DNA of 64,000 nt from Ancylonema sp. (lineage: Eukaryota): assembly GCA_050230475.1 (NCBI GenBank), contig JBFLGF010000069.1, positions 1 to 64,000 of the forward strand, read 5' to 3'. Numbering within the stretch: position 1 is the stretch's first letter; each line of letters opens with the position of its first letter. The position numbers and the translations under genes were made by a program. This document shows, piece by piece, positions 917 through 54,737 of the stretch. The notes beneath the pieces were generated by a model that worked only from the letters and a program-made list of their open reading frames with translations, ran no database searches and was not told the origin of the DNA.

Positions 917-1426
917 TCAATAGGTTCCCCTTCCACAATCACTGGAGCATCAGCACTGGGTCCTTAGTCGTCGTCTTCATTTCCTCCCTCATCTCCACCA
1001 CTTCCCTCGTCGTCGTCACTACTGTCTTCCACCAAAACATGCATTTCCAGCTGATGATTCACTTCCCCCACAGAAAAAACATCATCATTGAGATCTGGAA
1101 ACATGAGCAGATCGACATCATCAAACTCCCCACCATCAACTGCTTTTTTCCACCAGCCAACCTCAATATTTTCATCGACATCGGGAACCCCCACATTGAA
1201 CACCTTCCCCCTCACTATATCCGAGACTCGATATCCGATACTCCTAGCAGGATATCCAACGACTACCCCCTCCCACTTCGTTACTCCCCTCTCCCCCTTT
1301 CTCTTAAACTATTCCATCGACACTTAGGCTTTGCTCCCATAAGCTCTTAGATGTTTGATCGTTGGAGTACTACCAGACCACAACTCATTTGGGGTCTTAC
1401 TCAGACCGATCACTGGTCCTCTGTTT

Positions 1427-4227
1427 TGTCGTGCCGTTAAGCATCGTGCCCCATTCACACGTGTAACCCATTCGATATAACGAACATTGTTACAATGAGT
1501 ATGAATCACGTGCGAAATATGAATCTGGTGCGAATTATGTGTCGTCTCATCACATGGAGTGTTTGCACATAGAATCATGACCTAGTCGAGGTCCGCCACA
1601 CACACGTGTGTACAAGCATCGCGCAAGTCTACCACATGTCAAATATGATTTTCTAGTCTACCTATGGCAAGGCGTTGCCATTGGACTGAACGTAGAGTGT
1701 TCGAAGCTGATGAAAGGTATGAGATTGCAAGATGCGATCACACAAGATCTGAAATGAATTCACACAATCGCGAAAATGCCAGCCGAACACAATGAGAATT
1801 GGATGGACAATGGTATTGTATTCCTCAGAGATTCCCGAGGAGTGATAAGACCAATTAAAGGTCGAATCACTCCTGTTACAGACTTTATAGAACTCAGCTC
1901 AGCAATCTATGCTAGTTACAAGGAAGCTACCATTCCTGCCGTATCGACTTATGGCGCCGGCTCGGCGGTTTTAGCTAGCCGACTTTTCCTAGTTTATCCA
2001 ATTGTAAACTAGCACGCTAGGACAGATGGTGCAACATGCTTTACTCGAGGTGAGAAGATGTTAAACTAAAATACTGCAGTAGTGTCGATGCGTCACAGCT
2101 ACTGACCAGTATCCCCATAAGTCACAAAATGGCGATCCACGCCTTGTCGCTTTCCTCCCGCAACTAAGATGCCAACTTACGGCGCCTTTACCGCGGGAAT
2201 ATTGCTAGGCGTTGACGGAGGAAACTGTACGCTGAATTGCCAGTGGCCTGGTAACGCAGCTGTCGGTACAGTCCGTCCTTGGTGCCGCCAAATGTGCCGT
2301 AGGTAGGTGGCGGAACAACTATACCGTTCGGTCTAACTAAGGCCTTAGATCCCTTTCACTTGACCAAGGACAAATCCGTCCGAGGGACACGTGTTATTAC
2401 TTCGAACATTTCGATAAGTAAAGTAACCACGCGCATTCCGACTTTCAAATATAGTCGTGAATATCCGTACCCGTGCCATGTCATCGAATAGACACCTTCG
2501 CCATATAAGCACTTCTACCTGAAAAGCGTTCACTAGCGTTATACGTAGTTCTGAGCATATAATCACACTTCACCGTTCAGGCGTATTTACTCTATAGGTA
2601 CTCTCACCGTATAGGCACACCACTTCGAGAAAATACCTTCTCCACTCTATATTCTCACCATATAAGCGATAATCTTCGTTATGAAGGCACACGATCGAAT
2701 ATTGTCCGACAGCTGTCGTGCCGTTAAGCATCGTGCCCCATTCACACGTGTAACCCATTCGATATAACGAACATTGTTATAATGAGTATGAATCACGTGC
2801 GAATTATGTGTCGTCTCATCACATGGAGTGTTTGCACATAGAATCATGACCTAGTCGAGGTCCGCCACACACACGTGAGCGCTAATAAACAACATTGTAC
2901 AAGCATCGCGCAAGTCTACCACATGTCAAATCTTATTTTATTATAGTCTACTGGCAAGGCATTGCCGTTGGTCTGAACGTAGAGTGTTCGAAGCTTATGA
3001 AAGGTATGAGATTGCAATATGCGATCACACAAGAACTGAAATGAATTCACACAATCGCGAAAATGCTAGCCGAACACAATGAGAATTGGATGGAAAATGG
3101 TATTGAATTCCTCAGAGATTCCCGAGGAGTGATAAGACCAATTAAAGGTCGAATCACTCCTGTTACAGACTTTATAGAACTCAGCTCAGCAATCTATGCT
3201 AGTTACAAGGAAGCTACCATTCCTGTCGTATCGACTTACGGCGCCGGCTCGGCGGTTTTTAGCTAGCCGACTTCCTAGTTTATCCAATTGTAAACTAGCA
3301 CGCTAGGACAGATGGTGCAACATGCTTTACTCGAGGTGAGAAGATGTTAAACTAAAATACTGCAGTAGTGTCGATGCGTCACAGCTACTGACCAGTATCC
3401 CCATAAGTCACAAAATGGCGATCCACGCCTTGTCGCTTTCCTCCCGCAACTAAGATGCCAACTTACGGCGCCTTTACCGCGGGAATATTGCTAGGCGTTG
3501 ACGGAGGAAACTGTACGCTGAATTGCCAGTGGCCTGGTAACGCAGCTGTCGGTACAGTCCGTCCTTGGTGCCGCCAAATGTGCCGTAGGTAGGTGGCGGA
3601 ACAACTATACCGTTCGGTCTAACTAAGGCCTTAGATCCCTTTCACTTGACCAAGGACAAATCCGTCCGAGGGACACGTGTTATTACTTCGAACATTTCGA
3701 TAAGTAAAGTAACCACGCGCATTCCGACTTTCAAATATAGTCGTGAATATCCGTACCCGTGCCATGTCATCGAATAGACACCTTCGCCATATAAGCACTT
3801 CTACCTGAAAAGCGTTCACTAGCGTTATACGTAGTTCTGAGCATATAATCACACTTCACCGTTCAGGCGTATTTACTCTATAGGTACTCTCACCGTATAG
3901 GCACACTAGGCACACTTCGTGAAAAGACATTCTCCACTCTATAGGCGCTTCTCACCATATAAGCGTATGAAGGCACACGATCGAATATTGTCCGACAGCT
4001 GTCGTGCCGTTAAGCATCGTGCCCCATTCACACGTGTAACCCATTCGATATAACGAACATTGTTATAATGAGTATGAATCACGTGCGAATTATGTGTCGT
4101 CTCATCACATGGAGTGTTTGCACATAGAATCATGACCTAGTCGAGGTCCGCCACACACACGTGAGCGCTAATAAACAACATTGTACAAGCATCGCGCAAG
4201 TCTACCACATGTCAAATCTTATTTTCT
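1427..4227. repeat. Tandem array of the ~1286-bp LTR unit: 1427-2711, 2714-3997, partial 4000-4227
   Basis: Near-identical copies, each starting TGTCGTGCC; the two full copies end TTGTCCGACA and are joined by GC spacers. The short ORFs 2345-2566 and 3631-3852 translate identically. Confidence 0.95.
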
Positions 4228-4235
4228 CCCCCCCC
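4228..4235 (-). other. Polypurine tract (G8) of the Gypsy element
   Basis: C8 run on the plus strand directly abutting the end of LTR homology at 4227. Confidence 0.75.
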
Positions 4236-4818
4236 AAAGATGAACCAAGCTCCCGCGACATTCATCTTTGCACTACGTGCACTATGAAATAACGCCGACC
4301 CGAACATAAAGGGTTGTCAAACTCCGATAACTGAGGTGCCGGACCTGAAATCAGGAAGGTCCCACCATCACTATCGCCTCAAAGTCTACATATGAGATGT
4401 GCACTCACTATGTACTCACTTTGGCCAAAATATTATACCCCCCCCCAAATGTGCACTTTGGTGGATAAAATAAATTGCATCATCCATGAAGGAGTGATGT
4501 GTGGGCCATGCAATCCGTATGGAGTTGCCCTTCCCGTGATAATGGTACTTGGCGTAAGAACATTATCACCTTATGATCATAATAAACCATGAACATTGTG
4601 ATTCCTCCCCAATGTTAGGAGCCTTCCAAAGAATTTGAGGTATTTATAGCCATCAAGATTCAATATCAATACTTGTATGCCAGTGCAGGCAAGACAATGA
4701 AAAGCTACATTACAAAGTAATGGACCAAGAAATGGTTTTCGCCAGCTTCATAGGTGAAGATAGAGCTCAAAGACGAAATACCCCTATACACGAAAATGAA
4801 GTTGGGAGTGCACATACC

Positions 4819-4956
4819 TTAATGCTTAGGGCACGTCCATGGTTCGATCGGCACCCTCATCAAAGGCTTGTCAAGACACCATACGTGACAACCCGCGTTG
4901 CACTTATCACAAACGACCATTTTTGTCGCCGCCCGCCGTTGCCGCATTACTTGGCA
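4819..4956 (-). pseudogene. PHD finger at the C-terminus of Gypsy pol
   Basis: Hand translation, not in the ORF track: CQV...MVVCDKCNAGCHVWCLDKPLMRVPIEPWTCPKH*, matching the PHD pattern CDxC-GxHxxCL-VP-W-CP. Confidence 0.85.
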
Positions 4957-5080
4957 ATGGAGAGATGGACCTCGGAAGTTAACGTTCGGGGGTACATCTT
5001 GGTGTCAAGGATGGGAAGGGGAAACCGTGGGCGATGTTCTTTATCTGCTCCTCCCGTCTTGCCGCAATCGCTCCCCTCCA

Positions 5081-6060
5081 TTAACCACTACCCCGCTTTG
5101 GTTTGATCTCCACGATTCGTGACACATGAGGCCTGGATGGTGCCTCCAACGTGCTGACCTTGACTTGTCGTAGCATGACATAATCTCCGGGAGCAAAAGA
5201 TGCCTTGGGCCGATCCCATCCCCCGCCTCGCACTAAGCGGTACCGCTCCATGTCTCGTTGCTGGGCAATCGCAAGGGGCATGACACGTTTGAACGCCTGT
5301 CCACGGCGGTCCAAGAAAGCCCGCAGTCCCTCCTCCACTGTCTCAAGGTCTAGGACCTCCGCGTGTGACTCCTGAAGACGACTCTGAATGATGGGGTCCC
5401 GTCCGAACATCAAAAAGTATGGAGAATAGCCCACCGCCTTTTGCTTTGACATGCGGTAGCCCATGGCGACGTAGGGAAGGAGCTCGTCCCATTCCTCCCC
5501 ACCACCATCTAGAAGGCACTTCCTAAGCTTCATGGTCTGGACCATGCGCTCCGCCAAGCCGTCCGATTGAGGGTGCTCTCGAGACGCCAACCTGTGGGTG
5601 ATTTCGGGTTTGGCAAGGAGAGTTTGGAAATCTCCTTCAAAGTCTGTCCCTTGGTCTGTGAGAATCACCCCTAGTGCTCCGTATCGGCTCAACACCCCGT
5701 CCAGCAGTCCCCTCGCCGAGTCCCGAGATGATTTGGAGGGTAAGGGGATAAGTTCAATCCACTTGGTAAAATTGCATACCATGACATAGGTATTGTTCGC
5801 TGATGTCCTAGGAGGCCCGGCGGCAAAATCTACCCCCCACCTGTAGCCCAACCCTTAGACGGGTAGTGGCTGTAGCTCCTTCCCGGACTCCTCCCGAAAG
5901 CCCGCCTTTACCCGTGCACAAGGGTGGCATGCTCTGATGACGGTCATAATCATGTCGCCCATGTTGCGCCACTAGTAGTTCTTCTGAAGCCGATCAAGGA
6001 CCCGTTGGTGGACCCCGAAATGTCCCATCCCTTGATGGGTGTTGATGACAATTCCCTGGC
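5081..6060 (-). pseudogene. Gypsy integrase (HHCC zinc finger plus DDE core), frameshifted
   Basis: H-GMGHFGV; WGVDFAAG; ILTDQGTDF; HPQSDGLAERMVQT; GYSPYFLMFGR. Confidence 0.93.
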
Positions 6061-6359
6061 GGTCGGCTGGACGTGGCACCACTACGATCCTCCCCCCTTG
6101 TAGTGACTCCATCACCCCGTCGCACATCCAACGATAAGACTTGGCCCTCCGATAGATCCGATCCCGCATTTTAGCGCTCAGCCCGTCGCGGTCCTTGTGG
6201 GTTTGAATGAAGTGTAGTACATCGGTGTCGTGCCAGATGTCGCGTTCCTCCTCGCTGACATCCGTCGGTGTAGTCGCTCCCGCCATCAGCGCCAAGAAAG
6301 TGGTTGGTGCCAAAACTTCCCCTATGGTCCAGTCTAGAAGTGGTGCATTGGCAGCCGAT

Positions 6360-7640
6360 GGAAGGGGGTAACGACTCAGGCAGTCCGCGTTGGTGTTGGC
6401 AGTCCCCGCCCGATGTTCCACCGTAAAATCATACTCTTGGAGTAGTAGGCTCCACCTAGCCGCCAATTTACCCCCGTTAGCTTTTGAGTGGTCATAATCC
6501 ATTTTAAAGGTTCATGATCAGTCACAAGGGTGAAAGAATTCCCAAACAAGTAAGGCCGGAAATGACTAGTGGCCCATACAACGGCCAGACATTCCCCATC
6601 GAAAGATGCGTAATTCTGCTCCGCGGCGTTGCAAGATCTGGAAGCGTAGCATATTGGGTGCTCCACGCCTTCCGAGTTGCGTTGGCTCAGTATTGCGCCC
6701 CCGTTGGCTCCATTCCGTAGTGAGAATGAAAGGGGAGTAAGGGTCCGGGAGTCGTAGGACTGCGGCACTGCAGAGTTATTCTTTGAGCTCCAGATATGCA
6801 GACTCTTGCGCTTCCCCCCATTCCCATGGCCGGTCTTTCTTCAGTAGCGCGTTAAGGGGAAATGCGATGGAGCTGAAGTGTAAGACAAACTTCCTGTAGT
6901 ATGAAAACAACCCCAAAGATGCCCTCAAGCTAGATATGTCTGTTGGTGAGGGGAGATCACGGACTGCCGCTAGTTTATCCTGTTGGGGCTCCAACTTATC
7001 GGCTAAGATGCGATGGCCAAGGAAGTCGATGCTGTCCGCGCCGAACACGCATTTCCTTGGGTGTACTTTTAAGCCTGCGTCGCGCAATCTCCCAAACACT
7101 ATCTATAAGTGTTGAATATGTTCCTCCACCGTCGTAGACCAGATGATGATGTCGTCGATGTAACATCGACAGAATGAGAAGTCTTTAAGGACCTCATCCA
7201 TTCTGCGTTGGAAATGTGGCGGGGCATTTTTCAGTCCAAACGGCACCACCAACCATTCCCAAAGTATGCGATTAGCCCCCCAGAAGGCCGTCTTGGAGCG
7301 ATCCTCCTCGCGTAAGGGCATCTGGTGGTAACCGCTCCTCAGATCTAATTTCGAAAAGATCGTTGCCCCCCCCATCTGATTGAAGATGTCCTCCATTCTA
7401 GGTAAAGGGTATCGGTCCAGGGTGGTCTCCAGATTTAATGGTCTGTAGTCCCCACACTGTCTGAAGTCCGTATAGTTGCCCTCCGTATCCTTCTTCCGTA
7501 CGACGACGGTTGCGGACGCGTACATGGATTGGGTAGATCTCTGAATAAACCCAAGCGCCTCTAGTTTCTGACATTGCGCTTGAACAAAATCCCACTCCAC
7601 CTGACCCAGTTTGTGCGGGGGCCGAAAGATCGGTTAGCTG
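6360..7640 (-). pseudogene. Gypsy reverse transcriptase and RNase H, with stops and frameshifts
   Basis: DYRPLN, FSKLDLRSGYHQ, PFGLKNAP, YIDDIII, SLGLFSYYRKFV; RNase H GAILSQ...PICYASR...EQNY...FTLVTDHEPL...ARWSLLLQEYDF...NADCLSR. Confidence 0.95.
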
Positions 7641-8139
7641 GAGTTGAGGTGGATCTGAAGGGGCTCTCCTGTAAAGGGCTCAATGTCCTCCAATGAGAAA
7701 GCGAAACGATCCAACGATCCAAGTTGGTAATCGCCAGGACCTTCAGTTGGTCCTACTCTTGTAGGCTTGCGCCTATTTGAAATTTCGGGGTTGGCGACTT
7801 GTCCCGCTGAGGGGGACCTGGCGTACTCCCCCCCTCGCCCTCAGGGGCTAAAACCCTAGGGTTTTGAGTAGACCCTCCTGGGGATTCCGTGGCAAGTAAA
7901 GCGTTGACCACCCCCATGGCAGCATGACGTGGAAGATTAGGAGGAGATTGGAAAAGGGATGCATCCACTGTAACCCTTTCTCTCATGGCTGGGATGTAGT
8001 GGAGAGACGTGAAAGAAGGATGGATGGAAGGAAGGGTGATGTCCCCCCCCCCAGGTGAGAGAGGATGTCTCTGAATCTGGGTGGGGTGAGATCCCTATGC
8101 CTGGCTGGCATGCAAGAAGGCACCCAACCACCGCAGTAT

Positions 8140-9110
8140 TTCCGTCCAAAGCGCGCCCCAAACGAATAGCGCGGTGATCCTCCGTGACGCCAGATGTGAC
8201 CGTATCGCCAGCGTGAAATCCCAAAAGGAGCTCTTTCTCCGTGGCATCTGGCTCCTCTCCCAACTGTTGGTGTGGATTATACACTGACCCTCCCCGGGTG
8301 CTCCATCGGCTTTAGCACGGAATGCACATTGCTCCCCAAGTATATGAAACCACGGTAGGCATACAGATGCGCGCCCATCCAAGTTGTTTGTGGGGGGGAA
8401 ATGGGTGGCGATCCGTGTGACCTGGTTTGGTGGGGATGTGATAGGGTCTGAGGATGGTGTCCACCAGAGAAGGGGATGGCGGTAGGATGGGCAGCGCAGC
8501 TTGAAGGGTTGAAGGGGGCAGCATGTTAGTCCATAAAAGGCGCACACGATGGGCGGCTGCCCCAAATGTGCTCCATCCAACCAGGATAGGTGCTCCCAAG
8601 AATGCGTGCACTAACTCCCCTACTTTGTTGACTGCTGGGGCACATGTCTCCCCTGGGTAGGTGTTATCCAAAATGTAGAGCATTGGTGACTCCTGTTCGC
8701 GCTGAAAGAAGTTGATGATACGCACCAAGTCGTAGAAGAAGGTGAAGCGGGGATCCTCGGGATCCTCGGCGCCCAGCTGCCGTCCGGCCCGGCTGACACT
8801 CTAGCATTCCCTACTTCCCCCAAGGAGGTCCACTGGTCCATAGCGTGCCACCAAATTTGCAAGAAAAAGTTGGCTGACAGCGGAGATGGACTGCTTGTCA
8901 AATGATCGTATGGCGGAATCCAGGAGTTGACGAGGATATTGGCGTTGCAGGCTGGTCAATACACAAATCGTGCGATGTGCGACGGCTGATGTCGTCTTTG
9001 TCCACGTAGGTGTAGCAACGTATGCAATAGCCTGCTGCTAGGGCAGTTCGAAGAACTCCCAGGCCAAGCCAATTCCCCCAAAAAAATCCAGCACGTGTAA
9101 GCCATTTTCA
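8140..9110 (-). pseudogene. C5 cytosine DNA methyltransferase domain embedded in pol between protease and RT
   Basis: Motif I VLDFFGGIG (~9095); motif II YTYVDKD; motif IV DLL-GSREC*SVSRAG with the catalytic Cys (~8805); motif V DPRFTFFY; motif VI YILDN; motif VIII AHRVRLLWTN; motif IX EKELLLGF; motif X RLGRALD. Order is canonical; frameshifts and a stop are present. Confidence 0.88.
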
Positions 9111-9465
9111 TGTACTTGAGATGAAAGCGTGCGTACAGACGCAGACGCAGACGTATTGGTATTGACAGGTACAGCTCCCTGCCTGAACGACATCACCCAA
9201 CCATTTGGACGTGGGATGCGAGGTTGGTAGGGCAAGAGGGACAGTTTGTGCCAACTTGACCGCGCGGCACTCTCCCTTCGCGCCAGGTCACCTACCCTCA
9301 CCTCCTCACACAACCTTACCGACTCTTGGCGGTCGCATGCCTCTGCAAGTTGTTGAAGGTTGACTGCCGCTAACTGGAGGGGAGAGGAATAAAATCCGAA
9401 GTCCTCCTCGGCTGGTATAACGTCGTCGTCGGCGCCTTGCACATCTTATAAGTCGATCTCTCCAT

Positions 9466-11747
9466 CTAGGAGGCCACTGAAGCAAGCGTAAGCGATGAGA
9501 GGTGGAGATGACGTGTGACATATGGGGCAGATATCTCGTGTACATGTGCCACCCCATCGCTCCCCGTCCACCGACACTTGAATTGCTCCGTGTATGTGTC
9601 GTAGGCTCCACCCATTGATGTCATGAACTCCATGCCTAGCAAGACGTCGTAGGCAGTCGTGTCCACAATGGTGAAAAATAGCCATATTGTATGCATGTGT
9701 GGGTGTGGCGTTCCCCGGCCGAAAGTGAACTTCACCTTTCCCCGTGATACGCCAAGTGGCATTACTACAGCTCCACTTGCTGTAACATACTCCACTCCTC
9801 TAGTCAGGTTGTTGGAGTTGATTTGCATTGCAGCCGCGAATGTCTAGCTCAGCATCACGTTGGTGGCCCCGGTGTCGAGTATGGCCTCTTTTGGCACACA
9901 TCCCTCTACATCGAGTACCCCATGTGTATTGTCGATGTAAGCTGGTTGTTGCTCGGTCCGCCTCTGGCACCCGCGAATGGTTCCTCGTGTATGATGGGCA
10001 CACGTTGATCCGGGAAGCGCCTTTCTTGGTCTGTCGCCTTATCCCACAGGCTTGCGGACAATTCCGCCACCAGTTGTTGCAGGTTTGTGGCTGCATGTCG
10101 GAGCTGTGCCATGGTCTGCAGGGGTGTTTCTGTCATCAAGATCTCCCCATCTCCGAGTGGCGCCTCTGGAAATAAATTGGTAGGCGGGAATCGTAGATCG
10201 GATGTCCCCGGCTCCAAGCTGGATGGAGGTAAGCCATGCGGGAATGATTGCGGCAGTTGTCCCTTGAATGCGTATTTGTTACTTTGGAAGCCAGGCGTAG
10301 TGTCTGGTTCCTCTTGTGTAGGAAACAAACGATCGACGGACTCTGGAGTAGGGTCAGCAACGAGTGGAGGAGAAGGAGGCGTAAAGTGGACTCGTCGTCC
10401 TCGTGCCTGCTCCGATGATTGCCGTGCTGCCTCCGTGGGTAGGCTGGGCCTTGTTGACCGCCTCTGCACCATGGCCAGATGAGGTCGCCGATAGGTGAGG
10501 GCCATTCCCTGGCCTAGAAGTGATAGTTGGGTGGGGCTGACGTAATCGGCTGCTTTTCTCCTCTTACGCGCTGTTGCTGACAACGCTTGCTGCCTCTTCT
10601 TTAGTGGTGCTTCTAGCACCAGCTCCGGGTGTGCCGACCAACACTGCGCCTCTGTATGACCTGGCTTGTTGCAGGATTCACACACATGCCCCGTGGTCTT
10701 GTGGGTGGCCATCGCGTCAGTATTGTTGACAATTGTCTTGCCATTGGTGGCTGGGGTTGTGGTTGTTGGGCAATTCCTGGCGAGTCCTGTCTTCTTTACA
10801 CTCGCGGTTGTCGTGCGTTAGTGCACTCTCCCCTCTAGTTCCGAGTCGGTCTCGTACATCTCGCGGTTGAGTGCCCAAACGATCTCCCACCGCTCTATGT
10901 GGTCTTGGAGGTGGTGGTGGTGCCGAGGGGAGTCGCTCATCACTTGTGGGTCGTGGATTAGGTATCTGGCCAGCTGCGCGCATCTCAGCTTCAAATTCCT
11001 CCAGAAGAAAGCCCTCCTTACGTTGCGCTAGTGCCATCAGTTGTTCGTCCATGTCCATGATGAATGGCGTCCCCTTCTCGAATCGTTTCTCTCTCATCCT
11101 CCCTCATCATTGAGTTGATGGTGGACCGCCTGATGTGAGTGGGATATGTTGTCGTAGGTTCAACGCCAATCCACGTGTTGTCATTAGTCCCGCTGTGAGC
11201 AGTGGTATCGCCACTTCATCAAAGTGGTCAGCCAATTGTAGGAGTGATTCCCGTGGTTTAGCTTTAAACGCATGCAGGTCCTCCAAGTAAATAGCCGATG
11301 CAGCCTGAAATGAAATGTCTCCTGTACAATAGCGAGGAACTCGTCCAATTCAGCTGGCTCCGGAATAGGATCATCCAACAAATCAGGTTGTGCGGGTGAT
11401 GGTCCTCCCGTCTGGACTTGAATCTGGCGTAAGTCGTAGACTGACTTGGCCTTGTAGTAGTGCCTCCATTTGGCACGACTCGCTTCTCGTGTGACGGCCT
11501 CCTCGTAGAATGGGTTGGTCTCGTCACAGTAATCCCATTTGTCAATGAAATTGTCCAGCAGACGTCGGGCCTGTCCTCCCATACGTAGTCCCAATGACTC
11601 AAGGTATTCGTATTGTGCGATACCGTTGGCCAATTGTTTCATTGGGTCGTTGAGCAGGTTACGCCACCCGATACGCGCGTCTTTGATGCAAATCCTCTGC
11701 TCATTGCTGCCGTCACCAGTGTATTTCTTATCACTTACTGGATTCAT
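9466..11747 (-). pseudogene. Gypsy gag (with CCHC knuckle) and aspartic protease, fragmented
   Basis: CESCNKPGHTEAQCW at ~10685; protease AILDTGATNVML at ~9885-9851 and YDVLLGMEF. Confidence 0.8.
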
Positions 11748-11816
11748 GATGTCAAACTTTTTTTCTTTTTTTTTGCGATATCAAATTCTGAACTTCGGAA
11801 TTTAACAAAAATTTCC

Positions 11817-11830
11817 AATTGGTCTTATCA
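11817..11830 (-). other. Primer binding site TGATAAGACCAATT, self-complementary type
   Basis: Abuts the LTR boundary at 11831; exact reverse complement of LTR positions 12019-12032; does not begin TGG as a tRNA PBS would. Confidence 0.75.
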
Positions 11831-12882
11831 AGTCTACCTATGGCAAGGCGTTGCCGTTGGTCTGACGTAGAGTGTTCAAAGCTTATGAAAGGTATGAGAT
11901 TGCGATATGCGATCACACAAGATCTGAAATGAATTCACACAATCGCGAAAATGCCAGCCGAAGCCGAACACAAAATTGGATGGAAAATGGTATTGAATTC
12001 CTCAGAGGTTCCCAGGAGTGATAAGACCAATTAAAGGTCGAATCACTCCTGTTACAGACTTTATAGAACTCAGCTCAGCAATCTATGCTAGTTACAAGGA
12101 AGCTACAATTTCTGCCGTATCGACTTACGGCGCCGGCTCGGCGGTTTTAGCTAGCCGACTTACTAGTTGATCCAATTGTAAACTAGCACGCTAGGACAGA
12201 TGGTGCAACATGCTTTACTCGAGCTGAGAAGATGTTAAACCAAAATACTGCAGTAGTGTCTCGTATGCGCACAGCTACTGACCAGTATCCGCATAAGTCA
12301 CAAAATGGCGATCCACGCCTTGTACGTGTCGCCTTCCCGCAACTAAGATAACATGCCAACTTACGGCGCCTTTAACGCGGTGTGAATATTGCTAGGCGTT
12401 GACGGAGGAAACTGTACGCTGAATTGCCAGTGGCCTGGTAACGCAGCTGTCGGTACAGTCCGTCCTTGGTGCCGCCAAATGTGCCGTAGGAGGTGGCGGA
12501 ACAACTATACCATTCGGTCTAACTAACTAAGGCCTTAGATCCCTTTCACTTGACCAAGGACAAATCCGTCCGAGGGACACGTGTTATTACTTCGAACATT
12601 TCGATAAATAACCACGCGCATTCCGACTTTCAAATATAGTCGTAAATATCCGTACCCGTGCCATGTCATCGAATAGACACCTTCGCCATATTCGCACTTC
12701 TACCTTATAAGCGTTCACTCGCGTTATAAGTAGTTCTGAGCATATAATCACACTTCACCGTTCAGGCGTATTTACTCTATAGGTACTCTCACGTATAGGC
12801 ACACTTTTCGAGAAAAGACACATTCTCCACTCTATAGGCGCTTCTCACCATATAAGCGTTAATCTTCGTTATGAAGGCACAC
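11831..12882 (-). repeat. 5' LTR segment X of the Gypsy element, with TATAAA at 12065-12060
   Basis: Homologous to 1655-2692 and 2945-3978 with small indels; lacks the 228-bp Y segment, which lies at 4000-4227. Confidence 0.9.
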
Positions 12883-15028
12883 CTAGACACTAAGCAACCT
12901 TGTTTCGAATGCACGATGCAGTTGAGATTGCCTCCACCCAAAACCCCCATCCTAAGCCAGCACCTACCAACATTGATCTTGCCTTGTCTTGCAGCGTACG
13001 ATTCATTCGCACCGCAATCCCATTGCTTTGAGGTGAACGTGCTGAGATAGTTTGATGAAGAATGCCATGCTCCCTAAACCGAGTCTCAAGTGCTGTATCG
13101 ATATATTCTCCTCCTTTGTCTGACCTGATTTTCTTGACCCTCCTTCCAGTCTGATTTTCGTTTACTGTGATCCACTCCTTGAGAGCAACCTTAGTGTCGC
13201 TCTTCTGTCGAAGTGGCACCGTCTAGGACTTCCGACTGAAATCATCGATGATCACCAAGTTGTGCTGGCTGCCTCCTCCTCCCATTGCCTTTGGGTTAAA
13301 AGGGCCAACGATATCCGTATGAGCTAGCTCAAGAGGCTCCTTCGCCTTGTACTCCTGAATTTTCCTTGGATGTGATTTCTCGCTGGACTTTCCAACTTAT
13401 AACTTTGGCACATTCCGAAGTCCCCTCTGATCCCCTCCTCCAATCCCCCGACCAGTTGCTCTTGCAGTAATCTCTCCATTCCCCCCTAAGATGTGTGCCC
13501 AAGCCTTCTGTGAAGCAATTCCATGCTTATCCATTTTCCTCCAAGTGCCTCTCCCTCCATTTCCTCAAGTCCATGGAGCCCCTCGCAGATAAAGGTAGGT
13601 CTCGCTTTCAACGATTCTCTCATTTTAGCTATTTGCTCTCCTTCTTTGTTCAAGACGGGACTCTCTTTCCCAGGCTAAGGCTCCCCTTTGAAAGAAAAAC
13701 TTCAAGCACCCTTGTCCCGGATTCGCTAAAGCGAGAAGATATTCACCTTCATCCCTCGCAGAAACAACACCTCATGAAGCTCTAGTACACCTCTCACTCC
13801 ATTCCCCTTGTCAGTGGACAGGCGCACTACTCCCCATTTAGTTATGACCACCTTTCCTTTAATCTGCTTGTTATGGAATGTTGATGGAATGTCTTCGAGG
13901 AAGTCAAACATATTTATGCCACCCGACATGTGATAGTCAGCTCCGACCCACTCCCTCTCTTCTCCATCACCATCTCCTATGCCCATGTTGATCTCCCCAA
14001 TCAGCACCTTTGCATGTCCCTAATCTTCCCCATCTGTCCCCTTCCCAAATATTTCATGGCCACCTAGGCCTCTCCTTGCGCTACAAGCACCTCGACCCCT
14101 TGTTCTTGTACCACCGGATTTTCCTCCCCTTGCAGCTCCATTTGCCTTGTTGTAATATGTTAACTCAATGTGTCCTACTCCTCCACACCATGTACAGACG
14201 CTATCCTTCTTTGGGCACTCTCTGCTCTAATGGTCCGACTCACCACATCTGAAACAATTTGTTGATTTCCCTTCACTTCCTCCACCGCTTCGACCGCTGA
14301 GATTTCCCCTTCCTCCCCCCCTAAAGCTCCCTCGACCCCTCGTAGGCTGATAATAGATTTCTATCGCCATTGCCGACGCTCCAGATTGCAGCGCCCACCT
14401 CTTCTTTGTAGACTCTATATCATACATTCGATCCCAGATGTAGTCTATGGGTGGAGCTGGAGTTTGCGCGAAGTACGACTCACAGAGTATATCATACTTC
14501 TCTGGTAGAGCACCAAGGCGTGTCTGCAGCCGATTATTTGCTCTTATCATACCACCCTGTACTGTCACCTTGCGTGAGAGCTCATTGTACCTCTGCTTGA
14601 TAGTAAGATAAGACTCATCACCACTGATTGTGAAGAAAAGAAACTCTGTGCGCGCTGATGATCGCTGCGCGGGTGTCACTGTATTGTAGTCTGCTCCAAA
14701 TTGTGCCTACATGAGGACAAGGTTGTTACCATGAACATCGAGACACATGACAAAACTGTCGTCTACCGTCTGAGTGATAAGTGACGCGGCCTTCTTGGCC
14801 CAATCCTTGATTTCCACGTGTCTTTTCTCAACCTCCGCAATATTGACCGGAACGTTTTCAGCATCTTGAACTTTTGCGATTTCAAAAGGCTCCATCTCTG
14901 TACCGTTTAATATTTCCAAACAGTCCTCTGCATCCACGATTGCCGTGAGTTTTGTTCTCCACGGAGCGTAAGACAATGCGTCCTTCAACACCATCTTTTT
15001 TACATACTCTGAGGATCCGGAGCTAGAG

Positions 15029-15445
15029 GCTCTGATACCACTTGTGGACGCCATGTTGACGTATACTCTTGACTTAACTCTTAACTCACTCAGAACTCAA
15101 ATAGTGCTCAATGAATATTAACACATACACATACTCAATTGCGCATTCACATACATTTTAAACTCATACACATTGTGCACGATACATAGACAAAGCTTCT
15201 TTCATGAACAACAAGTGAAAACAAATGCTGGAGAAGGATTGTCACTATAGTGGTTTGGTTAGCGAATCTCGATCCGCTAGCCAAAAGTATGACCTTGGAA
15301 CACGCAACCGAGTCCAAACATTCATAAACGACTTACGACCCTAGATACATCAAACGATCAATCTAAACTCGGTCATACACAATCTTCATAAATACGCACG
15401 CACGCGCCAAGCTAGACTACGCCGTCGCCACGTTGTCACTAACAC
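15029..15445 (-). repeat. Copia tRNA-iMet PBS (TGGTATCAGAGC, 15040-15029) and truncated 5' LTR (15043-15445)
   Basis: Canonical plant PBS 2 nt after the LTR CA; LTR homologous to 59389-59792. Confidence 0.85.
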
Positions 15446-17491
15446 AAAGGCTATCAAAAGCCTCGCCTAATTTTGAAAGACGGGAATTATCGACACTAGA
15501 GTACAATCATCGAACAAGTGCCTCGAAAGAAAAAGGTTTGGGTCCACGTGCAAGGTACGGTGGCACCACCCGGACCAATTTTGCAACTTGGCGCTTGCGC
15601 TTCGCCAGCAGTCCCCGCAGTACCCGAGATCGTCGCCGCGATGGGCGTAGCCGCAGTTCTCGCCGTACCCGCCGTACCAACAAACGCTGGCGTTACAAAG
15701 GCGCAGGTCGACGCTTCTCGCGTGGCCCACGATCAACACGCCGTGAACGAGGCGAAGGCCGACTCCATGATCCTTCTCACGCTCAATCCGAAGGACCCAA
15801 TGACCCTGATTGCGTATATCACGGCAGCGAAAAAGTGGACAAAGCTTGCCGCTGATCACGTGTCAATTACAGCGTCGAAGGGAATCAATGCTACTCAAAA
15901 AATTCAGTCGTTTGTATTTATTGTAGGAGAAACAGTCTACTAGAGCAGGCAACGCTTCGACGGCCTAGTCACCGAATGCGCGCTTCAGGGTATCGTCCTG
16001 TCCGAGATGTTGAAAACCACGGTGCTTCTTACGCACCCAACTGAGAGGTGGAAGACCTTCATTGACTCCATCTCCTTTCAGGGTCCTCTCCCGACAACAA
16101 CAATAATATTTCACCACATGATCATCCTTTCATAAAAGAGGGAGGCCCGAGACGAGAAGGAACACACTAAAGCGAATTTCGCGGACTACAAGCGACGGAC
16201 GCGTCATCCATCGACAGGTGGCCAGAGACGAGTTCAGAGCCGGAATGAGGTTCAGCATTAGCAGCCAAGGCGAGAGGTTCTTCAACCAGGGTCTGCAAAT
16301 CCCTGCTTTTGTTGCGGAAGTTTCCTGCACCTTTTCGCGACGTGCCCTAAGAAAGATCTGAGTTGCAATGTTTGCGACAAGAAGGGGCCAGGTGTAAGCT
16401 ACGACGAACAAGGCAATAGTTGATCAGCCTTCAACTTCCGTGGGCAAGCCAAAGAAAATTGAGTTCGCGGGGGACCTAAAAAGGCATCTGCTCTGAAAAA
16501 GGCTATGGCCGCGGAAATCATCGAAGTAGAGGCTGGCAAAATTTGCAATGTTTCAAGCAATGAGTGGTTGGCTGATAGTGGTGCGAGTAGGCAAATTTGC
16601 AACGATGTACGCATGCTATGGGATGTGAGGCAGCTTCCAGTACCCATCATAGTCGGGCACCTAGCGGATGAAGTCCCGATTACGCAAAGTGGGACTGTAA
16701 AAATTCAGTGTGAGAATGAAACAGGAGAGGTGGTGCAAATTGATCTTCACGATGCTTTGTTTGTGCCTAACTTTCGTGTTAATTTATTCAGCATGCAAAG
16801 AATGAGGCAGGCACGCGTCCGATCAAAGATAGTAGGTAGTAAGTACCCATCAAAGATAGGGACAATTTGGATGATAAATAGTTTAGGCAATTACATAGGT
16901 AGTCTTGATGAAAGCTATCTAGGCAGGCCCACTTTGAATTGTCGCACCCTACTCTGTGACGTGGCTGCCTACACCTTTTTCCCTCCTACTCTGGATCCAG
17001 ACCCACGTACGACTGAAGTCGTCGCGGAGCAGGCTGTTGCAGCTGCTAACGTCACAGGGGACTTGTGAGCAACCGCCCCTGCTCCCTCTGTTACGGCACA
17101 TTCTACCGCAACCGAGGCCGCTTCAGAGACACCTTGGAAAAATCTGCCCTGCAATTCAACTTGATCTCCTACACCGACGCACAGGCCACTCTGCTCTATG
17201 TACACTGTTGCAGCTAAGAGGCGAAGGCCTGGTTCGACCTCTCGACTCTGGCTCTGAACTCGTCTCTGGCCACCTGTCGATGGCTGACGCGTCCGTCGCT
17301 TGTAGTCCGCAAAATTTGCCACAGTGTGTTCCTTCTCGTCTCGGGCCTCCCACTTTTATGAAAGGATGATCATTTGGTGAAATATTATTGTTGTCGTCGG
17401 GAGAGGGACCCTGAAAGGAGATGGAGTCAATGAAGGTCTTCCACCTCTTAGTAGGGTGCGTAAGAAGCACCGTGGTTTTCAACATCTCGGA
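15446..17491 (+). mobile_element. Second Copia family fragment (gag, protease, GAG-pre-integrase start) with an inverted duplication of part of gag
   Basis: Degenerate gag; WLADSGASRQIC protease (~16565); LFVPNFRVNLFS; LDLLHRRTGH (~17160); 17250-17491 is the reverse complement of 16001-16241. Confidence 0.8.
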
Positions 17492-17521: not shown

Positions 17522-17825
17522 NACCCCCCCCCCCCCCCCCCCCAAAACCCATCATATTTTCCAGGTTTTGACAATTTCACACGCCGGCTCCGCCACTCTG
17601 TCGGAATCTGTCCATAAAAACCTTCCACCCACGTGTAACAATCATACCCATCCCATCCCATCCCATCCCATCTTATCCCGTCCAGCCCGTGGCTGGCCTG
17701 CCACCATCAGTTAAGTATGCATCCCTCCTCTCTCGAGGCAGCCGTGTTTGGACTGTGGCTCTCATTGACTGCCCCCCCACTAGATGGAGGTCCAGGTTCG
17801 GGATCAGGTCTAGGTTCAGACGTAC

Positions 17826-19723
17826 CTGCTGCAGGTTCACCCCGCGGTCCAGAGCCCTCTGAATGAGCCCAAAAGCGGAATCGAACGAAATGGCATTCAG
17901 ACTCCGCTTCTCCCTGCGCACCCACCCACCCACAGCGCGCACAGGCTGGCAGTGCTGGTATAACCGACCCACAACTTCTCACGTTCGTTATAAGTGGGGC
18001 ATGGGCCAGCTATGCTCACCCACCCCTCGGTAGAGCGATCCGATGACAGCTGCCACGTGTGTGATACGTTATGACTTACTTGTTCTATTTCGAAGCAGTT
18101 CTAGAGACCTGAAGTTGCCAATCAGAAGAGAGGGGTTCTCCATCCTCTGAAATTTATGTGAATTACGACAGCGGCCCCTCCCCACATCGCATTCCTCAAA
18201 TTTAACTGCACCGAAATCAGCCACCCCGCAGTCCTCCTCCCCCCCCCCACTACCAACCTCTCCATACCCTCCCCTCACTTCTCACCTACCCCTCTCAAAG
18301 ACACTGCAGTTATGAACCGACTGACCAATCACGTTCCAATTAGGACTGTCGTGTTCCACCGGTGGCTAAGATTGTTAGGTGTTGCCTAACAAATCAAGTG
18401 CAGAAAACAGTTTTTTTAGGGTTGTTATAGTGGAACAAACTTGTGTTGTCAGTAGAGACGGAATCCGCAATTTTTAGCCACTTATCAAGTAAGTGGGGTT
18501 ATAAGCCTCACATTCTGAGCATGGACGCCGAAATCGCCTCGGGGGAGATGACATCCACAGCCCATCCCATGAGGGGGTCGGACACAATGGCAGCGTACAG
18601 CTGCTCACGCTTTGCTTCGCTCAGAGTCTTCGAATCTGATTCGGAAGGGGTAAGGGGTAAGAGGTAAGGGGTAAGGGGTAAGAGGTGAGATTCAATGTCG
18701 ATAGTCTATGCTATTGTTTTTTATTCTCATTGTTACTGTCAATTATTTTTATTATTATTGTTACTACTGCTATACTTTTTGTTATTATTATTATTGTTAT
18801 TATTATTGTTGTTATTATTTCTACCATTTAGATTGTATGGGATTACAATTTCTGTCAATGATAGCAAATATTGTATTTATTGCTATCATTGCTATTGTTA
18901 TGACCACCATTATCATTATCATTATCATAACTATACTGATTCTCTTATTTGTATCATTCTTGTGAATTTTATTACCATTACATTCGTCTTCATCATCACG
19001 ACTATTCTGAATATTATTGTCATCTTAATAACAATTGTCACGAACATTTTTAGTGCACCGACAAATGTTTAGTATCATTCCTATGATGGTCGTTATGATG
19101 GGACCGACATTATTGTTGTCCGGCCTTCAAAACCGACATCCGGCCTCCCGATCTGGAGTGCTAGATGGGACCCACACCGCTGATCTGAGGCACCCCCTTT
19201 ATACCGACCAAGTGAGTGTGTTTTCACCTGCGAATTCAAGAGTGCCGATTCTCTTTTTCTGGGAGATGGGACAATATGCGCATCCGTACACCATGGGGCC
19301 TGCGCAGGGAGACACGGGGCTGGGCATCCTCAGAAGCTTCCTCGCCACCTCATGCATCGCAGTGCTTGACAGGATTCACCCAGAAAGGGTCAAAACATAA
19401 ATGTAATGGGTAGAGGGGGATAAGGAGGGGTAAGGAAGCGAAGGAGTTCGTGACACTGGGGTTATCAGGAAGTCAACGCAGGTGCGCGTGGCAAAACGAG
19501 TTGCAGGACGAAAAGATCCGCCTAGAGTCATGCAAGCATCTGGCGAGATACTGGTTCTCGTTTCACACAGCAGGGTGACACATTTGAAATCAGACGGCCA
19601 CATTGGCAGAATCTGAGTCGAATACGTACCCAAGACCGGGCCTCTACCAGCCTCGTCTATCCCGAGCATGCAGGGCTCTTCGAACCAATCGCGGTTCGGA
19701 GGAGGCACCATTGCTAACGCCAT
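17826..19723 (-). CDS. RNASEH2A: Ribonuclease H2 subunit A, first four exons (19723-19630, 19299-19228, 18635-18512, 17913-17826); 3' part not found
   Basis: LGIDEAGRGPVLG/PMVYGCAYCP/DSKTL...GWAVDVISP/SLNAISFDSAFGLI; GT-AG junctions in phase. Confidence 0.92.
18700..19100. repeat. Degenerate ATT/ATC triplet low-complexity tract in an RNase H2A intron
   Basis: Visible TAT/TGT/CAT repeats that generate spurious ORFs. Confidence 0.85.
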
Positions 19724-19871
19724 GATCTGGATTTGACTTCCGCACTTTGTAGAGTCGGAAGCTCAGATTCTTGGTCGCGAGGAAGTGAAGAGATAGATTA
19801 AACGAAACAGTCGCACTGGTGCCGGAGAAGGGACCCTCCACCACCGAATACCGACTTGCGGTGTAGCATCT

Positions 19872-53032: not shown

Positions 53033-53991
53033 CATTATCAGATGGACTCTTCGCAACATGTACAACTTCCAACTCGGGATCCATACAAACCCTTACATAA
53101 AGTGAAGTCTACCGCTTCCATATATTTTGCTCCTGTATATTTTCTGTGAGGACATCGGAAAACAGGGTTCGGGCGGGCAAAATGTAAAAACAAAAAAGGC
53201 CGTTCGGTCACCCGGTCAAACCGGATACGTGGCGGGCCGATAATCGTGGTCAAGTTTCTCCTCGATCTCCCGTGCATAGCAGCGGCGTTCTGGTCCGTAG
53301 TTACCGGTAGCTTTCGGTACTACGACCCATGCCAGACTCCTGACAAGAAGTCCGTCTTACGGCTTTCCGCTCTCAGTGGGAGACTTTGTAGCCATGACGG
53401 AACCCGATATCGTGCAATTCTGAGAATGTTGCCGATGACACGTAGTGTTTAGTGATCTAGTACCATTTCCGTATCGCTCCATGGCCCGCCGATGACCGAA
53501 CACCCACTGCGGATACAAAAGTATGGCTCCACAACGTCTAAATGCGTGGAAGCGCCTGCACTTCATGTCTTCTCACACTTTGATGAGACGCCCACCGGCC
53601 TGCTATCGCGACAAAAATATCTTTCTCACCCCTCCTGATGTGTCTCAGAATCCTTCATTGCCTACAAAAGCGCCACATTACCGTTGTGCGCAAATAATGG
53701 CCGCTGAAATGTGCCTGAGCCGGCAACCCTTTCCAGAGTTTTTTTCGTGCCTTATGCGTAGTCATTTCTCGTCCACCCCTCAGCTCACCCAGCCATTCGC
53801 CACAAATGAGGACCTTCATCCAGCTCACGACACGAAACCAGTACTTACCACCACAGATTCCCGCAGTCCGAAAGAATTTCGCGCCTCGAAGTCCTCAGCT
53901 CCGCTCGTAGACGAGATCGTCGACTCCCTCGCTGACCTTCTAGTCACATATGAAGGAGACCCTGCGGGCGCCCCTGCAGCTGCGCTGTCAA
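53033..53991 (+). repeat. Local duplicate of 61269-62269 (promoter and part of exon 1 of the unknown gene), cut at the N at 53992
   Basis: Near-identical ORF MAPQRLNAWKR...APAAALS; upstream region more diverged. Confidence 0.92.
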
Positions 53992-53992
53992 N

Positions 53993-54737
53993 AATTTTAT
54001 GTTAATACACATGTGCATGTATTTTGCGTCCCCCTTTTACCCCTTTACGCAACATTCAATATTTTATGTGAAGACACATGTGCATGTCTTCTGCGTCCCC
54101 CCTTTACCCCTGTACGCAGCATTGTGTGTTTACAGTGTATACACATGTGCATGTATTCTGCGTCCCCCTTTTACCCCTTTACGCAGCATTGTTGAATTAG
54201 AGTGCATACACTTCAACATGCATTATGCATCCCCTCTTTTCACGTGTACGGAGCATTGCTGAATGAATGTGCATACATTTCAACATGTATTATACGTCCC
54301 CCTTTTTCACATGTACGCAGCATTGCTGAATTAATGTGCATACACTTCAACATGTATTATGTGTACATGTGAAAAGGGGGGATGCATAACACATGTTGAA
54401 GTGTATGCACATTAATTCAGCAATGGTGCGTACATGTGAAAAGGGGGGATGCATAAAACATGTTGAACTGTTTGCATATTCATTCAGCAATGTTGCGTAC
54501 ATGTGAAAAGAGGGGATGCATAATGTATGTTGAAGTGTATGCACTTTAATTCAGCAATGTTGCGAAAAGGGGTAAAAGGGGGACGCAGAATACATGCACA
54601 TGTGTCTTCACATAAAATATTGAATGTTGCGTAAAGGGGTAAAAGGGGGACGCAAAATACATGCACATGTGTATTAACATAAAATGTTGAATGTTGTGTA
54701 AAGGGGTAAAAGGGGGACGCAGAATACGTGCACATGT
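53993..54737. repeat. Foldback ~60-bp minisatellite (inverted arms around ~54360), continuing at 60065-60145
   Basis: CACATGTGCATGTATTYTGCGTCCCCCTTTTACCCCTTTACGCA units read forward, then in reverse complement; mirrored ORFs in the track. Confidence 0.9.

What the first reader, a model, noticed from the sequence alone, without database searches (positions are those of the whole stretch)
1427..12905. Circularly permuted split-LTR Gypsy: an integration end lies at a palindrome inside the LTR
Seen: on the minus strand the element reads X-PBS-internal-PPT-Y-X-Y-X-Y (X ~1057 bp, Y ~228 bp). The PPT and PBS define LTR = Y+X with AG...CT ends, and 1654/1655 is a seamless end-to-end junction (TTTTCT|AGTCT). 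Yet the TSD-flanked left boundary starts at TGTCG, half of the 12-bp palindrome CGACA-GC-TGTCG at the internal Y/X joints (2707-2718, 3993-4004). Known: LTR integrases normally use TG...CA at the ends of linear cDNA. Inference: the att site has moved into the LTR, so a 2-LTR circle is opened once at the palindrome to give X-int-YX-Y, which still supplies terminal redundancy. The extra unit here would be a later duplication. Caveat: the last 18 nt on the right (12883-12900) do not match the expected ...GTCCGACA.
Basis: partly seen in the sequence, partly recalled or inferred. Interest (0 to 1): 0.88.

Follow-up and report, generated by a model that had tools for sequence, protein, structure and literature searches.

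The report
Gypsy retrotransposon cut inside its LTR
Copies of this jumping gene, and of its relatives in other green-lineage genomes, begin and end at a short palindrome in the middle of their end repeat, which likely means the DNA copy first joins its two ends and is then re-cut there for insertion, a route thought to be a dead end and now testable in a relative that is active in laboratory Chlamydomonas.

Summary
Confirmed and extended. The element is a decayed Gypsy (protease, C5-methyltransferase, RT, RNase H, DDE integrase, PHD; no tyrosine recombinase) laid out A-internal-B-GC-A-B-GC-A-B inside a Copia element. In contigs of four public runs, unlike flanks pile up exactly at the two halves of CGACA-GC-TGTCG, while the PPT/PBS-defined ends are fused seamlessly family-wide. 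So genomic ends sit inside the repeat that reverse transcription makes. The CA-GC-TG core recurs after pol in several distant families, all in one integrase branch with a D,D(34)E centre. At least 10 of 21 numbered Gypsy families I saw in the published Chlamydomonas library have the same layout, including lab-active Gypsy-7a_cRei. Likely mechanism (inferred): linear cDNA is end-joined and integrase opens it at the internal palindrome. The layout was noted once (KnitGypsy-Dnmt3 figure legend; an 8-bp remark on Gypsy-7a) without explanation in the papers searched; this scan proposed the same idea before on other DNA (four earlier notes). The odd 18 nt at the right end look like copy-specific repair filler. 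The third repeat unit is unexplained and untested by long reads.

The parts
1422..1426 (+). left target-site duplication TGTTT (or its last 4 nt)
   Evidence: matches 12901-12905; empty site seen in Copia paralog 57238-57244
1427..1654 (-). terminal B (Y) repeat; the element's 3' end is CGACA at 1427-1431 on the minus strand
   Evidence: family ends here in 53, 37, 39, 14 contigs of 4 runs (equivalent place 2714)
1654..1655 (.). seamless junction of the PBS-defined end of A with the PPT-defined start of B
   Evidence: same junction is the family consensus in contigs
1655..2711 (-). A (X) repeat, third copy
2707..2718 (.). palindrome CGACA-GC-TGTCG, inferred integrase site (GC spacer 2712-2713)
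   Evidence: core conserved in other families
2714..2939 (-). B repeat, middle copy; 0 substitutions in 226 nt against the PPT-adjacent B
2940..2944 (.). imprecise second A|B junction (5-nt filler, 3-nt deletion nearby)
2945..3997 (-). A repeat, second copy
3993..4004 (.). second copy of the palindrome
4000..4227 (-). B repeat directly after the PPT
4228..4235 (-). polypurine tract (G8)
   Evidence: same tract in a contig of run X10
4807..4995 (-). PHD-finger region, out of frame with the integrase
   Evidence: tblastn to P0002/P0014 ends, E 7e-15, 9e-12; those proteins carry PF00628
4982..7711 (-). RT - RNase H - integrase, broken by stops and frameshifts; integrase core 5084-5854 with D,D(34)E
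8135..9227 (-). C5 cytosine methyltransferase domain, broken
   Evidence: 38% to P0014 480-834, E 1e-61; P0014 517-733 is PF00145
9571..9915 (-). aspartic protease region
   Evidence: E 2e-14 to P0014 252-365, which is gag-asp_proteas
9916..11780 (-). gag region (inferred from position; no Pfam hit)
11817..11830 (-). self-priming-type primer site, 14 nt, directly after A
11831..12882 (-). 5' A repeat; TATA-like box 12060-12065; predicted transcript 5' end about 12032
12019..12032 (-). 14-mer complementary to the primer site, 33 nt below the TATA-like box
12883..12900 (.). 18-nt filler replacing the normal 19-nt terminus; 15 of 18 nt match two overlapping copies (one inverted) of flank 13184-13198
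12901..12905 (+). right target-site duplication

Best explanation
This is a Gypsy-type LTR retrotransposon whose genomic copies start and end at the two halves of a CA-GC-TG palindrome lying inside the repeat bounded by its PPT and primer site, likely because its cDNA is first joined end to end and its DDE integrase would then cut the internal palindrome to insert it. Steps: (1) transcription from a promoter in the 5' A, likely starting about 200 nt before A's end (inferred from TATA-like box); (2) minus strand primed by fold-back of the RNA's own 5' end, Tf1-style (complementarity shown, use inferred); (3) ordinary strand transfers give linear B-GC-A-internal-B-GC-A (inferred from PPT and primer positions, which are shown); (4) the blunt ends are joined, giving the A|B junction (junction shown in genomes; joining as a circle or head-to-tail multimer inferred); (5) integrase nicks after each CA, leaving CA-3' ends with 2-nt 5' GC overhangs, and inserts with a 4-5 bp duplication (end positions shown; the cut inferred). 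Cutting the palindrome in the primer-side repeat gives A-internal-B-GC-A-B, the only product that keeps both a promoter and a complete 3' repeat; A-internal-B copies would come from one-LTR circles, double cuts or later B-B recombination.
For: Family ends: unlike long flanks (agreement 0.35-0.41) before 2714 in 4 of 4 runs (53, 37, 39, 14 contigs) and behind 2711 in 3 of 4 runs listed (16, 11, 7; agreement 0.40-0.49). PPT/PBS ends: short loose letters whose consensus is the seamless junction in 4 of 4 runs (54, 24, 13, 1 contigs). Second family (6 loci): 5' end at TGTC in 3 of 3 loci with a 5' A, seamless A|B in 3 of 3 loci where B follows A, 3' end at the CA half-site in L012, L036, L059, and 14 nt around the palindrome identical to the window's although the repeats are otherwise unrelated. 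CAGCTGTC within 1.5 kb after pol in 6 of 10 branch loci (two are one insertion) against 0 of 40 others, 0.13 expected. Chlamydomonas library entries show the same layout with B from about 6 to about 50 nt. No tyrosine recombinase in 39 window ORFs of 75 aa or more, 17 ORFs of L059 or 9 long relatives. Catalytic D, D, E are present. Biochemical precedent: foamy virus integrase cuts both strands of an internal palindrome after CA and leaves 2-nt 5' overhangs (PMC1180852 section 8).
Against: Loose-end tables were cut (24 of 638 rows, 24 of 172), so a minority of ordinary ends cannot be excluded; X1 and X6 are one sample and may be the window's source. The mirror product (cut in the other repeat: A-B-GC-A-internal-B) was not seen in the few loci at hand. 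This copy has an aberrant 5' end, one imprecise junction and a third unit whose B is identical to the PPT-side B while the 5' A differs from the other A copies by 2.8-3.3%, which a single insertion event does not explain. In the Chlamydomonas library the Gypsy-18 consensus ends with the GC still attached, and the Gypsy-10a LTR end does not match its internal end.
Confidence: 0.7

Rival explanations
1. No ligated circle: reverse transcriptase, on reaching one end of the linear cDNA, jumps onto the other end and copies on through B and the palindrome, giving a terminally extended linear DNA that integrase trims back to the CA at both palindromes. Same products, different joining enzyme.
For: Explains a near-perfect junction without host ligation (consensus agreement 0.74-0.83) and could generate extra tandem units such as the third one here; easy to picture for families where B is only 6-8 nt.
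Against: The junction has no shared base to aid a jump; the imprecise second junction with filler looks like host end-joining; no precedent found in the searches.
Confidence: 0.18
2. The element replicates like PAT/Ngaro/VIPER split-direct-repeat elements: the RNA runs through the last B, the A|B junction is inherited rather than remade, and a different priming scheme yields a circle.
For: Identical repeat order A1-B1-A2-B2 (PMC4157794, PMC6681497 passages); KnitGypsy-Dnmt3 was described as DIRS-like in repeats.
Against: A's end coincides with a primer site at position 0 and B's start with a G-run PPT in three unrelated families, as ordinary LTR reverse transcription requires; tRNA-type sites follow A in Gypsy-7/8/9; no tyrosine recombinase; short TSDs are present.
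Confidence: 0.08
3. An ordinary Gypsy with tandem LTRs whose ends were trimmed by deletion or misassembly at this locus.
For: The locus is decayed, the right end is aberrant, the third unit is unverified, and the window has scaffold joins (N at 17522, 53992).
Against: Dozens of independent contigs from 3 studies end at the same two bases; the layout recurs in unrelated hosts and a curated library.
Confidence: 0.03

Closest known systems
KnitGypsy-Dnmt3 of Klebsormidium nitens (de Mendoza et al. 2018, PMC5890265; section 9 read whole, passages elsewhere)
   Same: Gypsy domains with a C5 methyltransferase in Pol and repeats arranged 'as in a DIRS retrotransposon' (Fig. 4c legend). A K. nitens protein (P0035) falls in the same integrase branch.
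   Different: The paper gives no termini, palindrome, priming mode, TSD or mechanism in the parts read; I could not compare its sequence directly.
Chlamydomonas Gypsy families in the published repeat library (Craig et al., PMC9940879, Dataset S15; parts and entry boundaries read), incl. active Gypsy-7a_cRei
   Same: Internal entry ends in PPT + last part of LTR + GC; Gypsy-18 is a full A-internal-B-GC-A-B with a TGACA-GC-TGTCA palindrome; Gypsy-7a has a PHD finger and, by my hand count from the printed sequence, D,D(34)E, against D,D(35)E in ordinary Gypsy-17.
   Different: B is 6-50 nt rather than 228 nt; Gypsy-7/8/9 have tRNA-type primer sites; the paper only remarks that the left LTR lacks the last 8 bp.
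PAT, TOC, Ngaro, VIPER split-direct-repeat elements (PMC4157794, PMC6681497; passages)
   Same: A1-ORFs-B1-A2-B2 order.
   Different: Those encode a tyrosine recombinase; this has a DDE integrase, a PPT, CA/TG ends and a TSD.
Integrase cleavage of 2-LTR circle junctions in foamy virus and HIV-1 (PMC1180852 abstract and section 8; PMC1905944 abstract)
   Same: Double-strand cut of an internal palindrome after CA, 2-nt 5' overhang.
   Different: There the palindrome is the end-to-end junction itself and cutting restores the linear form; here the palindrome is a fixed part of the repeat, away from the junction, so cutting permutes the element and joining would be obligatory.
Tf1/sushi and Tcn1 self-priming chromoviruses (PMC6317226, passages)
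   Same: Primer site complementary to a stretch within the 5' repeat instead of a tRNA.
   Different: Those have ordinary LTR pairs and mostly chromodomains; this branch has PHD fingers and split repeats.
IS3-family insertion sequences (recalled, no call)
   Same: DDE enzyme opens a circle at two abutted ends with a 2-3 bp spacer.
   Different: DNA transposons; the circle junction is made by the transposase, not inherited inside a repeat.

Membership tests
Ty3/Gypsy LTR retrotransposons | Pol order protease-RT-RNase H-DDE integrase | tested here: met
Ty3/Gypsy LTR retrotransposons | PPT before the 3' repeat and primer site after the 5' repeat | tested here: met
Ty3/Gypsy LTR retrotransposons | two complete LTRs whose outer ends are the PPT/PBS-defined ends | tested here: not met
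   ends lie inside the repeat
Ty3/Gypsy LTR retrotransposons | TG...CA termini with 4-6 bp TSD | tested here: met
   family ends TGTCG/CGACA; TSD 4 or 5 bp here, 4 bp in L059; this copy's 5' end is aberrant
Ty3/Gypsy LTR retrotransposons | D,D(35)E spacing | tested here: not met
   34 residues in 7 of 7 readable branch rows and 40 of 41 proteins; 35 in 23 of 23 readable outside rows (29 further rows not read by the pattern)
KnitGypsy-Dnmt3 type | C5 methyltransferase inside Pol | tested here: met
KnitGypsy-Dnmt3 type | A-coding-B-A-B repeats | tested here: met
KnitGypsy-Dnmt3 type | sequence grouping with the described K. nitens elements | tested here: inconclusive
   one K. nitens protein is in the same branch (SH-aLRT 99, quick tree) but it is not labelled as KnitGypsy-Dnmt3 and shows no methyltransferase domain; one search returned no named protein
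DIRS-order split-direct-repeat elements (PAT, Ngaro, VIPER) | tyrosine recombinase | tested here: not met
DIRS-order split-direct-repeat elements (PAT, Ngaro, VIPER) | A1-B1-A2-B2 repeats | tested here: met
Tcn1/Tf1 self-priming chromoviruses | self-complementary primer site | tested here: met
   14 nt here; 8-10 nt exact, with matching changes on both sides between L013 and L006, not found exact in L059
Tcn1/Tf1 self-priming chromoviruses | chromodomain after integrase | tested here: not met
   PHD finger, no chromodomain hit in 9 long relatives
Circle-integrating retroelement (mechanistic class) | circular or end-joined cDNA is the integrase substrate | not testable with these tools
   needs extrachromosomal DNA sequencing and integrase assays

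The most novel reading that the evidence does not exclude
A widespread green-lineage branch of Gypsy retrotransposons (D,D(34)E integrase, PHD finger, some with a methyltransferase) has made end-joined cDNA its obligatory integration intermediate: the attachment site is a frozen CA-GC-TG circle junction carried inside the LTR and conserved from chlorophytes to streptophytes, and the integrase works as a site-specific endonuclease on it before strand transfer. This would be a natural case of the old 'two-LTR circles are the precursors' model, testable in Gypsy-7a_cRei.
Probability: 0.6. Interest if true: 0.9.

Novelty: new variant of a known kind. Interest (0 to 1): 0.78.

Why it matters
LTR elements and retroviruses are held to integrate linear cDNA, with two-LTR circles as by-products; whether circles can be real precursors has been argued for decades (background knowledge; PMC1180852 and PMC1905944 abstracts take up the question). 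Here a whole branch has a genomic layout that linear cDNA with ordinary ends cannot give, and one member is transposing in common laboratory strains (86 new insertions in CC-4532, PMC9940879), so the question can be tested directly. It also offers a DDE route to the split repeats so far tied to tyrosine recombinases, and means that LTR finders needing two full TG...CA repeats will misplace or miss these elements.

Tried and rejected
No genome is held for the window, so no direct copy census. Palindrome pattern in viral contigs: 0 hits; looser patterns gave 21 viral and 5 prokaryote hits, none with Pol similarity in 26 of 26 checked: chance. No RNA holder was listed: says nothing on expression. 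L033/L042's apparent A-B-A-B in the self-comparison was rejected: it is another element inserted with 40-57 bp duplications; their own CA-GC-TG lies at 14684 and no 5' A was found within the 10 kb held. Whole records behind the metagenome loci are not held. The careful tree did not finish; the quick tree on 171 columns of integrase core (59 of 84 loci gave a usable segment, viral loci L085-L146 left out) supports one branch but has no bootstrap and no root, and I make no claim on origin. The motif test used a motif defined from the window and the second family, so only L024, L030 and L033/L042 are independent tests (3 of 3 positive). No tRNA gene in the window. Unequal crossing-over between B copies was considered for the third unit but does not predict the observed second junction. 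No structure or complex was predicted. Only part of the Chlamydomonas library was read and the file is cut.
Full report
Observation. The repeat layout, the two palindromes, the seamless junction at 1654/1655 and the TSD are all in the sequence at the stated places. Read on the coding (minus) strand, with A = X and B = Y, the element is A - primer site - internal - PPT - B - GC - A - B - GC - A - B. It sits inside a Copia integrase gene; a 70-76% identical Copia paralog at 56242-59795 is uninterrupted at the site and fixes the duplication as TGTTT, or GTTT if the T is chance.

Coding content. The internal region is a decayed Gypsy pol: protease, C5 methyltransferase, RT, RNase H, integrase, PHD finger (domains of intact relatives). 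No tyrosine recombinase was hit in the 39 window ORFs of 75 aa or more (12, 27), 17 ORFs of L059 or 9 long relatives. The runs that hold the DNA are one coded organism and glacier, ice, sediment and unlabelled metagenomes; with the Klebsormidium relative this suggests a streptophyte alga as host (inference).

Where the family's ends are. I laid public contigs on a 121-nt stretch around the palindrome (4 runs, 3 studies; X1 and X6 are one sample). Loose ends with long, mutually unlike letters cluster before 2714 (53, 37, 39, 14 contigs; agreement 0.35-0.41) and behind 2711 (16, 11, 7 contigs in 3 of 4 runs listed). That is the pattern of insertion ends. On a stretch spanning the second junction (4 runs, 4 studies), the loose letters at the PPT/PBS-defined ends are short and their consensus is the seamless junction (54, 24, 13, 1 contigs), plus the PPT in one contig. 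Both tables were cut (24 of 172 and 24 of 638 rows), so rare ordinary ends are not excluded.

The odd right end. 15 of the 18 nt at 12883-12900 are covered by a direct and an inverted copy of one 15-nt flank segment at 13184-13198; 60 of 34,000 control 18-mers reach this from one spot, 28 with both strands. It resembles templated repair filler (recalled from polymerase-theta end joining) and is specific to this copy, since contigs show the family ending in CGACA.

Generality. A scan with an alignment of 19 relatives gave 80 metagenome loci. Six share a second, unrelated repeat pair (A about 340 nt, B about 115 nt): 5' ends at TGTC in 3 of 3, B directly after a G-run PPT in 5, B-GC-A with the same 14 nt as the window in L013 and L036 (degenerate in L006), seamless A|B in 3 of 3, and 3' ends at the CA half-site in L012, L036 and L059; L006's last B is truncated and L007 is rearranged. 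L059 is a complete A-internal-B copy with a 4-bp duplication. CAGCTGTC lies within 1.5 kb after pol in 6 of 10 branch loci and 0 of 40 others. In a quick integrase tree the 7 loci labelled as split fall in one 28-row branch (SH-aLRT 99) with a K. nitens and a Tetraselmis protein, and 5 loci with plain LTR pairs fall outside. The branch has 34 residues between the second D and E, others 35.

Chlamydomonas. Searching the published repeat library (PMC9940879, Dataset S15) for the palindrome gave 6 hits, 5 of them about 50-60 nt from a G-run. Gypsy-18_cRei, read whole, is A - self-complementary primer site - internal - PPT - B - GC - A - B. From entry boundaries of numbered families 1-21: 10 show the layout (2, 3, 5, 6, 7, 8, 9, 10, 11, 18), 8 look ordinary (1, 4, 12, 13, 15, 16, 17, 19; 19 judged from one end) and 3 were undetermined (14, 20, 21); later entries were not read. 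Gypsy-7a_cRei has B = 8 nt, matching the legend remark that its left LTR lacks the final 8 bp, and by hand count D,D(34)E against D,D(35)E in Gypsy-17. The paper reports 86 new insertions of it in strain CC-4532.

Priming. The 14 nt after A are complementary to a site 202 nt upstream, 33 nt below a TATA-like box. The second family shows the same, with matching changes on both sides between L013 and L006. Self-priming is described for Tf1/sushi and Tcn1 elements (PMC6317226 passages). Its use here is inferred.

Mechanism. PPT and primer site fix the reverse-transcription product as B-GC-A-internal-B-GC-A. Genomic copies carry that product's two ends fused and start and end at the palindrome, so the ends must have been joined and the DNA opened elsewhere. 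Nicks after each CA would leave exactly the processed ends a DDE integrase uses; foamy virus integrase does this to its circle junction in vitro (PMC1180852 section 8) and HIV-1 integrase cleaves its own (PMC1905944 abstract). The opening in the primer-side repeat is the only one giving a copy able to start a new cycle. Whether joining is by ligation (favoured, 0.7 with circle or multimer) or by an RT jump (0.18) cannot be told from genomes.

The third unit. The middle B equals the PPT-side B (0 of 226 substitutions), the two 3' A copies differ by 1.3% with 675 identical nt in the middle, and the 5' A differs from them by 2.8-3.3%. The added piece is exactly one B-GC-A repeat with a scarred junction. 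A three-repeat cDNA, later duplication with conversion, or an assembly effect all remain; no long reads were available.

What is in print. The layout is stated in one legend for KnitGypsy-Dnmt3 (the only paper with that name) and is implicit in the Chlamydomonas library. Searches for split LTR Gypsy (0 papers), split direct repeats with Gypsy and integrase (8 listed, passages of one read and of another, both on tyrosine-recombinase elements), circular intermediates with DDE integrase (1 listing, not opened), permuted LTR junctions (13 listings, none opened) and (0 papers) showed no account of the palindrome or mechanism; the REM1 paper and Craig's thesis could not be read. Earlier notes of this scan proposed the same idea for plant, fungal and bivalve elements; they are not independent evidence, and none lies on this DNA.

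Verdict. Real, family-wide and branch-wide; a new variant of Gypsy elements with an unexplained but testable replication step. Interest 0.78.

Noticed in passing
window 978-1425 and 12898-15448: The host is a decayed Copia element; a 70-76% paralog lies at 56242-59795 between 960-bp direct repeats at 53033-53991 and 61269-62269.
   Followed up: partly
window 16001-17491: A 1.5-kb element with 245-bp inverted ends (95%) enclosing a Copia-type protease fragment (Pol_BBD); no TSD evident.
   Followed up: partly
window 53994-54737: Head-to-head arrays of a 67-bp unit forming a 350-bp inverted repeat, next to an N at 53992.
   Followed up: no
window about 17700-19760, minus strand: Exon-like pieces that read like RNase H2 subunit A (GIDEAGRG motif; label recalled, no call).
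   Followed up: no
L033/L042 5851-6762 and 10826-11742: Two 910-bp LTR-like insertions, each flanked by a 40-57 bp duplication of target DNA rather than a short TSD.
   Followed up: partly
window 5084-5854 and relatives: The branch's integrase has D,D(34)E spacing, one residue short, in a region that may touch target DNA (role recalled, untested).
   Followed up: partly
window 1422-1426; L012 3597, L036 3778, L059 13337: Flanks after the CA end begin AAAC, TACA, AACA, TACA: a possible target preference, too few sites to test.
   Followed up: no
L024 4700-5670 and L030 6030-6380: Extra reading frame after the PHD finger before the PPT in two GC-rich relatives.
   Followed up: no
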